A stretch of 64,000 bases of DNA, taken from Escherichia coli. Its GTDB lineage: Bacteria; Pseudomonadota; Gammaproteobacteria; Enterobacterales; Enterobacteriaceae. Below the pieces are notes generated by a model. The model saw only the letters and a list, made by a program, of their open reading frames with translations. It searched no databases and had not been told where the DNA came from. Of the stretch, positions 46,234 to 46,714 are shown one piece after another (positions within the stretch are counted from its first letter, which is position 1; every line of letters begins with the position of its first letter). The position numbers and the translations under genes are program-made. The stretch lies in NCBI RefSeq assembly GCF_003790525.1, contig NZ_CP033635.1, one strand, 5' to 3'.

Positions 46234-46714
46234 CACAATCTCCCCTCAAAAAAAACGTATAGCAAATAATATCAATAAGGAAAAATATTATTTTTCAATG
46301 TTTTTTTGTATACAATTCATTTTATGAATGAATTTACAAAGATAGCTGCGCCTGATACCGCTACACTTTTGCCAGACCATGTTCTCCTCTGAGGGAGTAA
46401 CTGGCGCTTTTCATAGAATGCCGTACTTTTTTCAACAACTGCCACATCGAACGGCATTTATGGTGGCGTGAAGTGCCTGCCATAACCGCTCAATGTGGTG
46501 TTCCTACGATGAACAAACCGCTTGATATATTCTCCTGATGCAACCGGACAATATGTTCATGATGGGTATCCCGATACATAAGCCTTCGTTTTATTTTTAC
46601 AAAAAGAAATCGTTGTCGATATTTTATCAAGAAAAAAATAATTCAGGTAAAACGATTCAACTAAAAATAACTAAAATTAATCCCCCGTGAAATATATAAA
46701 TAACGTCAGATGAA

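What the first reader, a model, noticed from the sequence alone, without database searches (positions are those of the whole stretch)
46234..46714. ~0.5 kb ORF-free leader upstream of gene A
No ORF of 60 aa or more is reported on either strand between the araC-proximal hairpin and gene A, which is long for a bacterial 5' region. It holds a moderately GC-rich core (about 46350-46600) with inverted repeats, e.g. aatgccgt ... acggcatt around 46420-46460, flanked by AT-rich promoter-like sequence. It could carry the module's promoter and a structured regulatory or antitoxin RNA, or be the remnant of a degraded third gene.
Basis: inference. Interest (0 to 1): 0.45.

Follow-up and report, generated by a model that had tools for sequence, protein, structure and literature searches.

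The report
IS630 and kinase-gene scar upstream of gene A
The 0.5 kb "leader" is not a dedicated regulatory RNA; it is leftover DNA: the tail of a dead IS630-family insertion sequence joined to the first 13 codons and upstream region of a lost sugar-kinase gene, plus gene A's own short promoter region, which makes it an ordinary genomic scar.

Summary
Window 46237-46714 has no ORF of 60 aa or more, a 48-49% GC core between AT-rich flanks, and the 8-bp inverted repeat. None of this is unusual: 81% of shuffles are also ORF-free.

The window is E. coli (100% identical to SMS-3-5 and CE10), in the order thi-yabI-[islet]-araC-araBAD. The spacer has four joined pieces:
1. 46234-46339 is gene A's own upstream region. 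It aligns loosely with the 139-167 bp spacers that are the whole upstream region of gene A in Citrobacter, Salmonella, Enterobacter and Trabulsiella.
2. 46340-46539 is the right inverted repeat plus the last 63 of 343 codons of an IS630-family transposase. A 13-bp deletion and a stop codon break it. RefSeq already annotates it as a pseudogene.
3. 46541-46579 is the first 13 codons of a DeoR-PfkB kinase gene, and 46580-46712 is that gene's upstream region. About 11% of E. coli genomes, including ST131, keep this gene intact next to araC.
4. 46713-46745 is the araC terminator hairpin.

There is no Rfam match, no tandem repeats, and no conservation beyond E. coli. The one strong hairpin (46442-46498) is absent from the three IS630-family relatives compared, so it arose during the relic's decay. 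Verdict: an ordinary, largely already annotated decay product of low interest.

The parts
46713..46745 (.). Perfect 16-bp GC-rich hairpin directly after the araC stop codon (46747-46749). It is the likely intrinsic terminator of araC and marks the araC-side edge of the spacer.
   Evidence: the repeat finder I1 gives 16 nt at 100% complementarity. The terminator scan hits it on both strands. A degenerate version sits at the same place in the ST131 islet and in B2 strains.
46580..46712 (-). Orphaned upstream (promoter/5'UTR) region of a lost DeoR-PfkB kinase gene. It holds an extended -10-like TGATAAAAT at 46629-46621 and a GAAGG Shine-Dalgarno sequence before the stub's ATG.
   Evidence: It aligns with the araC-pfkB intergenic region of E. 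coli ST131, with two indels of 26 and 23 bp; the pairwise alignment of window 46500-46800 has 83% mean column identity. The promoter-like motif comes from my own scan. Activity is inferred, not shown.
46541..46579 (-). 5' stub of the PfkB-family kinase gene: 13 codons, MYRDTHHEHIVRL.
   Evidence: tblastn with ST131 WP_000285500.1 matches residues 1-13 with 10/13 identical.
46364..46539 (-). IS630-family transposase pseudogene: the last 63 of 343 codons, with an in-frame stop, a 13-bp deletion near 46457/46458 that shifts the frame, and truncation at 46539/46540. The stop codon TAG is at 46363-46361.
   Evidence: PGAP annotates an 'IS630 family transposase, frameshifted; incomplete; missing N-terminus' at the equivalent of 46361-46500 in SMS-3-5, CE10 and Nissle. 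blastn gives 73-81% identity to ISEc33 and relatives. tblastn matches residues 281-307 and 308-343 in two frames, E 9e-18.
46342..46361 (.). Right terminal inverted repeat of the IS630-family element (ATAGCTGCGCCTGATACCGC). The outermost bases, around 46338-46341, are degenerate. It is the only copy in the 64-kb window.
   Evidence: It matches the ISEc33 inverted repeat CTAAATAGCTGCGCCTAATA, found as paired arms in L006. It occurs once in the window with none expected by chance.
46442..46498 (-). Relic-specific imperfect hairpin inside the transposase pseudogene. It is an accident of the 13-bp deletion and is not followed by a U-tract.
   Evidence: A 91-nt segment folds at -34.8 kcal/mol with z = -4.75. 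The homologous segments of two intact relatives give z = -0.23 and -0.64. Across the window and three IS630-family relatives (two intact, one the ATCC 8739 relic) the consensus fold is -13.8 kcal/mol, with one pair changed on both sides. No terminator call here.
46234..46339 (-). Gene A's native upstream region. It holds an SD GAGGGGAG at 46247-46240, an extended -10-like TGCTATACG at 46264-46256, and the AT-rich palindrome AATTCATT/AATGAATT at 46314-46334.
   Evidence: It aligns with the upstream regions of gene A in Citrobacter, Salmonella, Enterobacter and Trabulsiella. Shared blocks include TG.TATA(A/C) 22-27 nt before the start codon. Promoter function is inferred.
45385..46233 (-). Gene A, a 282-aa hypothetical protein distantly related to DUF4056.
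   Evidence: ORF and PGAP CDS. Pfam gives only DUF4056 at i-E 0.6. No NCBIfam or PADLOC hit. Homologs occur across Enterobacterales.
44956..45378 (-). Gene B, 140 aa, with a hydrophobic N-terminal stretch that looks like a membrane helix (read from the sequence, not predicted). It follows gene A in all five loci examined in other genera.
44890..44936 (-). Stranded K-12-type 3' end of araC (last 11 codons plus stop), cut off from araC by the islet. It marks the yabI-side islet junction at 44936/44937.
   Evidence: Direct comparison with a K-12-lineage locus. Citrobacter keeps the same relic.

Best explanation
The 0.48 kb between araC and gene A is a composite scar, not a purpose-built leader. 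E. coli has a variable spot between araC and yabI. K-12 is empty there. About 11% of complete genomes (for example ST131) carry araC-terminator-pfkB-DHDPS-tctCBA. About 9%, including this window, carry gene A and gene B.

In the window's version the araC-proximal end of the pfkB-type islet survives: the short 281-aa araC end, the hairpin, the pfkB upstream region and 13 codons. It is joined at 46539/46540 to an internal point of an IS630-family element. Only the last ~200 bp of that element remain (63 codons plus the right inverted repeat). The element's outer end abuts the ~105 bp native upstream region of gene A.

The simplest history (inferred) is an IS630-associated deletion or recombination that replaced the kinase/transporter genes with gene A/B, followed by decay of the IS (13-bp deletion, stop codon, degenerate repeat tip).

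Functionally (inferred):
- The hairpin terminates araC.
- Gene A is most likely driven from its own proximal extended -10-like promoter (TGCTATACG, 46264-46256), giving a short 5'UTR.
- The orphaned pfkB promoter region may add read-through transcripts that cross the relic.
- Nothing in the relic is needed for gene A.
For: - Identity of the locus: 100% match to SMS-3-5 and CE10. 486 of 5426 complete E. coli genomes carry the whole leader, always with gene A/B.
- IS630 relic: PGAP pseudogene annotation. 73-81% nucleotide identity over window 46342-46539 to ISEc33 and other IS630-family elements. tblastn to residues 281-343 of a 343-aa transposase in two frames. The inverted repeat matches ISEc33's.
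- pfkB stub and upstream region: blastn 81% (E 2e-16) to ST131 genomes at the start of a PfkB-family kinase gene next to araC. The alignment runs through to araC. The 13-codon stub is 10/13 identical. The ST131 islet map is, and it is present in 581 genomes.
- Not part of the gene A/B module: Citrobacter and Salmonella have araC(281 aa)-166/167 bp-geneA-geneB-yabI. Enterobacter and Trabulsiella have araD-139 bp-geneA-geneB-polB. None of them has the IS or pfkB pieces.
- No RNA signal: Rfam's best hits have E 0.2-0.75, far below the gathering scores. No direct repeats, no tRNA or tmRNA.
- The hairpin is relic-specific.
- Variable-column density in the leader (2-3.8 per 100 bp, including indels) is like that of gene A and araC (3.5 per 100 bp).
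Against: - No transcript data were available, so the promoter assignments are motif-based only. The standard sigma-70 scan found no minus-strand promoter in the region. The proximal -10-like hexamer here (TATACG) is weaker than in other genera (TATAAA or TATAAT).
- The whole leader folds slightly better than shuffles (z = -2.2 and -2.6), and the 46442-46498 hairpin is strong (z = -4.75). A co-opted structural role cannot be excluded.
- The order of events (IS insertion, deletion, islet swap) is inferred. No intermediate genome was found among complete E. coli genomes.
Confidence: 0.9

Rival explanations
1. Co-opted long 5' leader. Transcription from the orphaned pfkB promoter (near 46629-46621) gives gene A/B an mRNA leader of about 380 nt. 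Its relic-born hairpin (46442-46498) or other structure then modulates stability or translation of gene A.
For: - An extended -10-like TGATAAAAT with a plausible SD and ATG lies downstream.
- No terminator-like site lies between it and gene A on the minus strand.
- The hairpin has z = -4.75 and the whole-leader fold has z about -2.2.
- The leader differs at only 3 SNPs and one poly-A length change among the window and three other strains compared, including B2 Nissle 1917.
Against: - Gene A homologs in four other genera work with 139-167 bp spacers that lack all of this.
- The hairpin is absent from the three IS630-family relatives compared, so it has no evolutionary depth.
- Near-identity among strains is matched by the flanking genes, so it shows recency rather than constraint.
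- The -10 motif is not exactly kept in ST131.
- Gene A itself is broken in many B2 strains, which suggests the islet is decaying.
Confidence: 0.06
2. An independent small regulatory or antitoxin RNA (type I or type III toxin-antitoxin style) is encoded in the leader and controls gene A.
For: Only generic features support this: an AT-rich promoter-like sequence, short inverted repeats and a modest negative fold z-score.
Against: - No Rfam family comes near its threshold.
- There are no tandem or direct repeats of the ToxI type.
- Most of the sequence is accounted for by recognisable gene relics.
- It is absent from gene A/B loci in other genera.
- Gene A/B match no PADLOC or NCBIfam toxin family.
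Confidence: 0.02
3. A small protein is encoded in the leader. One candidate is the 29-aa chimeric peptide MYRDTHHEHIVRLHQENISSGLFIVGTPH, starting at the pfkB stub's ATG (46579, minus strand). Another is the 50-aa plus-strand ORF at 46538-46690.
For: The stub keeps the pfkB gene's ATG and a GAAGG Shine-Dalgarno sequence. The ORFs are listed.
Against: - The peptide is a fusion of 13 kinase codons to out-of-frame transposase sequence, so any translation is incidental.
- The plus-strand ORF region is interrupted by 26- and 23-bp indels in the ST131 homolog.
- ORFs of this size are expected by chance: the median longest ORF in shuffles is 45 aa.
Confidence: 0.02

Closest known systems
IS630-family insertion sequences (ISEc33 and relatives; IS630/Tc1/mariner-type DDE transposase)
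   Same: Window 46342-46539 is 73-81% identical in nucleotides to the 3' end of these elements. It encodes the C-terminal ...IERLWQ...MWQLLKKVRH...GLAKV* segment and carries the family's terminal inverted repeat.
   Different: Only about 200 of about 1155 bp survive. There is one inverted repeat, no N-terminal 280 codons, a frameshift and a stop, so it cannot transpose. No intact copy more than 81% identical was found in the collections searched.
araC-adjacent pfkB/DHDPS/TctCBA islet of E. coli ST131 and other strains. The kinase is annotated as 'PfkB family carbohydrate kinase', and in one record as 'transcription factor/ribokinase fusion protein RikA'.
   Same: It has the same short (281-aa) araC 3' end, a related terminator hairpin, an upstream region at about 81-83% identity and the first 13 codons of the kinase.
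   Different: Everything after codon 13 (kinase, DHDPS, transporter) is missing. The IS630 relic and gene A/B take its place.
Native araC-geneA or araD-geneA spacers in Citrobacter, Salmonella, Enterobacter and Trabulsiella
   Same: The gene-A-proximal ~100 bp share the TGnTATA(A/C) motif, AT-rich blocks and the SD position.
   Different: Those spacers are 139-167 bp in total, whereas the window has an extra ~370 bp of relic DNA.

Membership tests
IS630-family insertion sequence | Sequence homology to an IS630-family (DDE_3 type) transposase gene | tested here: met
   PGAP annotation. blastn 73-81% identity. tblastn to residues 281-343 of 343, E 9e-18 against a one-sequence database.
IS630-family insertion sequence | Complete transposase ORF of about 343 aa | tested here: not met
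   Only the last 63 codons remain, with a stop, a 13-bp deletion and truncation at 46539/46540. It is therefore a relic, not an element.
IS630-family insertion sequence | Pair of terminal inverted repeats | tested here: not met
   The right repeat is present at 46342-46361 and matches ISEc33's. No second copy exists anywhere in the 64-kb window at up to 3 mismatches.
IS630-family insertion sequence | TA target-site duplication flanking the element | tested here: inconclusive
   Only one end survives and its tip is degenerate (ACAAAGATAGC against ACTAAATAGC).
PfkB-family (DeoR-PfkB fusion) kinase gene | Homology to the gene and its upstream region at the same chromosomal position | tested here: met
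   10/13 residues are identical. The pairwise alignment of window 46500-46800, which covers the stub, the upstream region and the start of araC, has 83% mean column identity.
PfkB-family (DeoR-PfkB fusion) kinase gene | Presence of the HTH and kinase domains | tested here: not met
   Only 13 of 410 codons remain.
Curated cis-regulatory RNA or sRNA family (Rfam 15) | Covariance-model match at or above the gathering score | tested here: not met
   The best hits score 21-27 bits against gathering scores of 62-100, with E 0.2-0.75.
Type III toxin-antitoxin RNA antitoxin (ToxI-like) | Tandem direct repeats immediately upstream of the toxin gene | tested here: not met
   No direct-repeat families in 46200-46760.
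Conserved structured RNA (generic) | Structure conserved, with covariation, in homologous sequences | tested here: not met
   The hairpin is absent from three IS630-family relatives. E. coli copies are 97% identical or more, so they carry no covariation signal. The leader is absent in other genera.
Rho-independent terminator (of araC) | GC-rich stem-loop followed by a T-rich tract just after the stop codon | tested here: met
   A 16-bp perfect stem at 46713-46745 and terminator-scan hits on both strands. Activity was not tested.

The most novel reading that the evidence does not exclude
The decay of the IS630 relic (the 13-bp deletion) happened to create a stable hairpin within a long leader driven by the orphaned pfkB promoter. 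E. coli may have co-opted this leader to regulate gene A/B, a possible DUF4056 (Lipocone)-type effector with its partner. That would be an example of a regulatory 5'UTR born from pseudogene debris.
Probability: 0.05. Interest if true: 0.35.

Novelty: already known. Interest (0 to 1): 0.1.

Why it matters
It matters little. The IS630 pseudogene is already annotated in RefSeq. What this analysis adds is modest:
- The rest of the spacer is an unannotated 5' stub and upstream region of the ST131-type pfkB islet.
- The araC-yabI junction is therefore a three-state variable spot (empty, pfkB islet, gene A/B islet), and the gene A/B form bears the scar of an IS-associated swap.
- For the scan, it is a reminder that long ORF-free "leaders" with a GC-normal core inside AT-rich DNA are often gene relics.

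Tried and rejected
- Rfam E-value scan of 44800-47000: only chance-level hits.
- tRNA/tmRNA scan: none.
- Sigma-70 consensus scan: no minus-strand promoter at 9/12 or better, only plus-strand hits facing araC. My looser scan gave candidates but no proof.
- Whole-leader folding: z = -2.2 and -2.6, driven by one hairpin that is absent from the IS630-family relatives compared.
- MITE hypothesis: rejected, because only one inverted repeat exists in the window.
- Search for an intermediate genome (pfkB islet plus intact IS plus gene A/B): none among complete E. coli genomes. Two divergent gene A variants (L017, L018) turned out to carry the same leader at 97-98% identity.
- Family assignment for gene A and gene B: Pfam, NCBIfam and PADLOC gave nothing significant.
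- Literature search for the araC-yabI islet: nothing relevant.

Full report
**Context.** The window is E. coli chromosome, running leuCD-sgrR-thiBPQ-yabI-[islet]-araC-araBAD. The stretch 46237-46714 is 100% identical to SMS-3-5 and CE10. It is present in full in 486 of 5426 complete E. coli genomes. In a K-12-lineage genome yabI follows araC after 85 bp.
- Base-by-base comparison puts the islet's yabI-side junction at 44936/44937.
- The last 11 codons of K-12-type araC are stranded at 44890-44936.
- The araC that is still attached ends eleven codons early, at ...RAGCE* (281 aa).
- The islet holds gene B (44956-45378), gene A (45385-46233) and the spacer under study, all read on the minus strand.

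**Observation.**
- The spacer has no closed ORF longer than 50 aa. However, 81% of shuffles of this 35%-GC sequence also lack an ORF of 60 aa or more.
- The GC profile shows a 48-49% core at about 46350-46550 between 20-28% flanks.
- The inverted repeat AATGCCGT/ACGGCATT is at 46417-46424 and 46451-46458.
Only the length is unusual: gene A homologs elsewhere have 139-167 bp upstream.

**What the core is.** RefSeq/PGAP annotates a frameshifted, N-terminally missing "IS630 family transposase" pseudogene at the equivalent of 46361-46500, minus strand.
- Sensitive blastn shows that window 46342-46539 is 73-81% identical to the 3' end of ISEc33 and other IS630-family elements on enterobacterial plasmids and chromosomes.
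- A four-way alignment shows a 13-bp deletion near 46457/46458 and abrupt loss of homology at 46539/46540.
- tblastn with an intact 343-aa transposase matches residues 281-307 (46539-46459) and 308-343 (46471-46364) in two different frames, with an internal stop.
- The 20-nt ISEc33 terminal inverted repeat corresponds to 46342-46361. No second copy exists in the 64-kb window.
- This is therefore a one-ended, dead relic: the right repeat plus the last 63 codons.

**What lies between the relic and araC.** The same blastn search matched window 46542-46638 at 81% to ST131-type genomes, at the start of a PfkB-family kinase gene that sits immediately downstream of araC.
- The alignment shows homology from the kinase's first 13 codons (46579-46541; MYRDTHHEHIVRL against MYRDTRREYIVRL), through its upstream region with two indels, the terminator hairpin and the short araC end.
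- The ST131 islet is araC-pfkB-DHDPS-tctC-tctB-tctA-yabI. It occurs in 581 of 5426 genomes.
- The araC-proximal ~205 bp of the "leader" is therefore the stump of a different islet.

**What lies between the relic and gene A.** Gene A/B homologs (62-70% identity) occur in two arrangements:
- araC(281 aa)-166/167 bp-geneA-geneB-yabI in Citrobacter portucalensis and a Salmonella enterica genome;
- araD-139 bp-geneA-geneB-polB in Enterobacter sp. ENT03 and Trabulsiella.

Window 46234-46339 aligns with those short spacers. Shared blocks include TG.TATA(A/C) 22-27 nt before the start codon. I take this as gene A's own promoter region (inference). The E. coli hexamer TATACG is weaker than TATAAA or TATAAT elsewhere. 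None of the other loci contains the IS or pfkB pieces.

**RNA tests.**
- Rfam gave only chance-level hits.
- There are no direct repeats and no tRNA or tmRNA.
- The leader folds modestly better than shuffles (z = -2.2 and -2.6) because of one hairpin at 46442-46498 (-34.8 kcal/mol, z = -4.75).
- The homologous segments of two intact IS630-family elements fold like shuffles (z = -0.23 and -0.64). An alignment of the window with three IS630-family relatives (two intact elements and the ATCC 8739 relic) shows no such conserved stem.
- The 13-bp deletion, between CCATAA direct repeats, brought the arms together. The hairpin is an accident of decay. No U-tract follows it.
- The window and three other strains compared (including B2 Nissle 1917) differ in the leader by three SNPs and one poly-A length change. 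Against two more divergent copies, variable columns are about as frequent in the leader (2-3.8 per 100 bp, including indels) as in gene A and araC (3.5 per 100 bp). There is no sign of special constraint and no power for covariation.

**Mechanism (inferred).**
- The hairpin at 46713-46745 terminates araC.
- Gene A most likely starts from its native proximal promoter.
- The orphaned pfkB upstream region has an extended -10-like TGATAAAAT (46629-46621). It might supply read-through transcripts across the relic, since no terminator-like site intervenes.
- The most economical history is an IS630-associated deletion or recombination that swapped the kinase/transporter cargo for gene A/B, followed by IS decay. 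No intermediate was found.

**Verdict.** This is an ordinary composite scar, most of it already annotated as a pseudogene. Interest is low.

Noticed in passing
window 44890-44936 and 46747-46772; L009 4250-4620: araC is 281 aa here (...RAGCE*), against 292 aa in K-12. The K-12-type last 11 codons (EKVNDVAVKLS*) sit stranded beside yabI on the far side of the islet. The islet is flanked by an imperfect 12-bp direct repeat, TTCACAACCGGC at 44923-44934 and TTCACATCCAGC at 46750-46761. Citrobacter keeps the same tail relic after gene B. The K-12 'long' AraC C-terminus may therefore come from loss of an ancestral gene A/B insertion, or the insertion may be ancient.
   Followed up: partly
window 45385-46233 (gene A) and 44956-45378 (gene B): Gene A belongs to a widespread Enterobacterales family of hypothetical proteins. 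More distant members (41-43% identity) are labelled DUF4056, though Pfam's own hit here is only i-E 0.6. bioRxiv 10.1101/2025.01.14.632903 places DUF4056 in the 'CapCone' clade of the Lipocone superfamily, and PMC11669294 lists it as a candidate T6SS effector in a bicistronic unit. Gene B is a 140-aa protein with a hydrophobic N-terminus that always follows gene A. Together they could be an effector/immunity-like pair.
   Followed up: partly
L014 350-1197 (E. coli Nissle 1917); proteins P0005, P0032, P0037: Gene A is split or truncated in Nissle 1917 (190-aa and 77-aa ORFs). A 202-aa truncated form represents 385 member sequences. The islet's main gene is therefore itself decaying in many B2 strains.
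   Followed up: partly
L013 393-1238 (E. coli ST131 strain, NZ_CP063774.1): araC is annotated as a pseudogene with an internal stop in this ST131 record. I did not check whether this is strain-specific.
   Followed up: no
window 39776-40345 (minus strand): A 189-aa ORF lies in a ~1.16-kb gap between sgrR (37867-39546) and thiB (40704-41699). It has no NCBIfam match. In the ST131 record, annotates only the TPP riboswitch in the much shorter sgrR-thiB gap, so this may be another small strain-specific insertion.
   Followed up: partly
window 46314-46334: The AT-rich palindrome AATTCATT-N5-AATGAATT lies about 80-100 bp upstream of gene A, just inside the IS end. Partly similar ATTCAT/ATGAAT motifs occur in the Citrobacter and Salmonella spacers. 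It could be an operator, or chance in AT-rich DNA.
   Followed up: no
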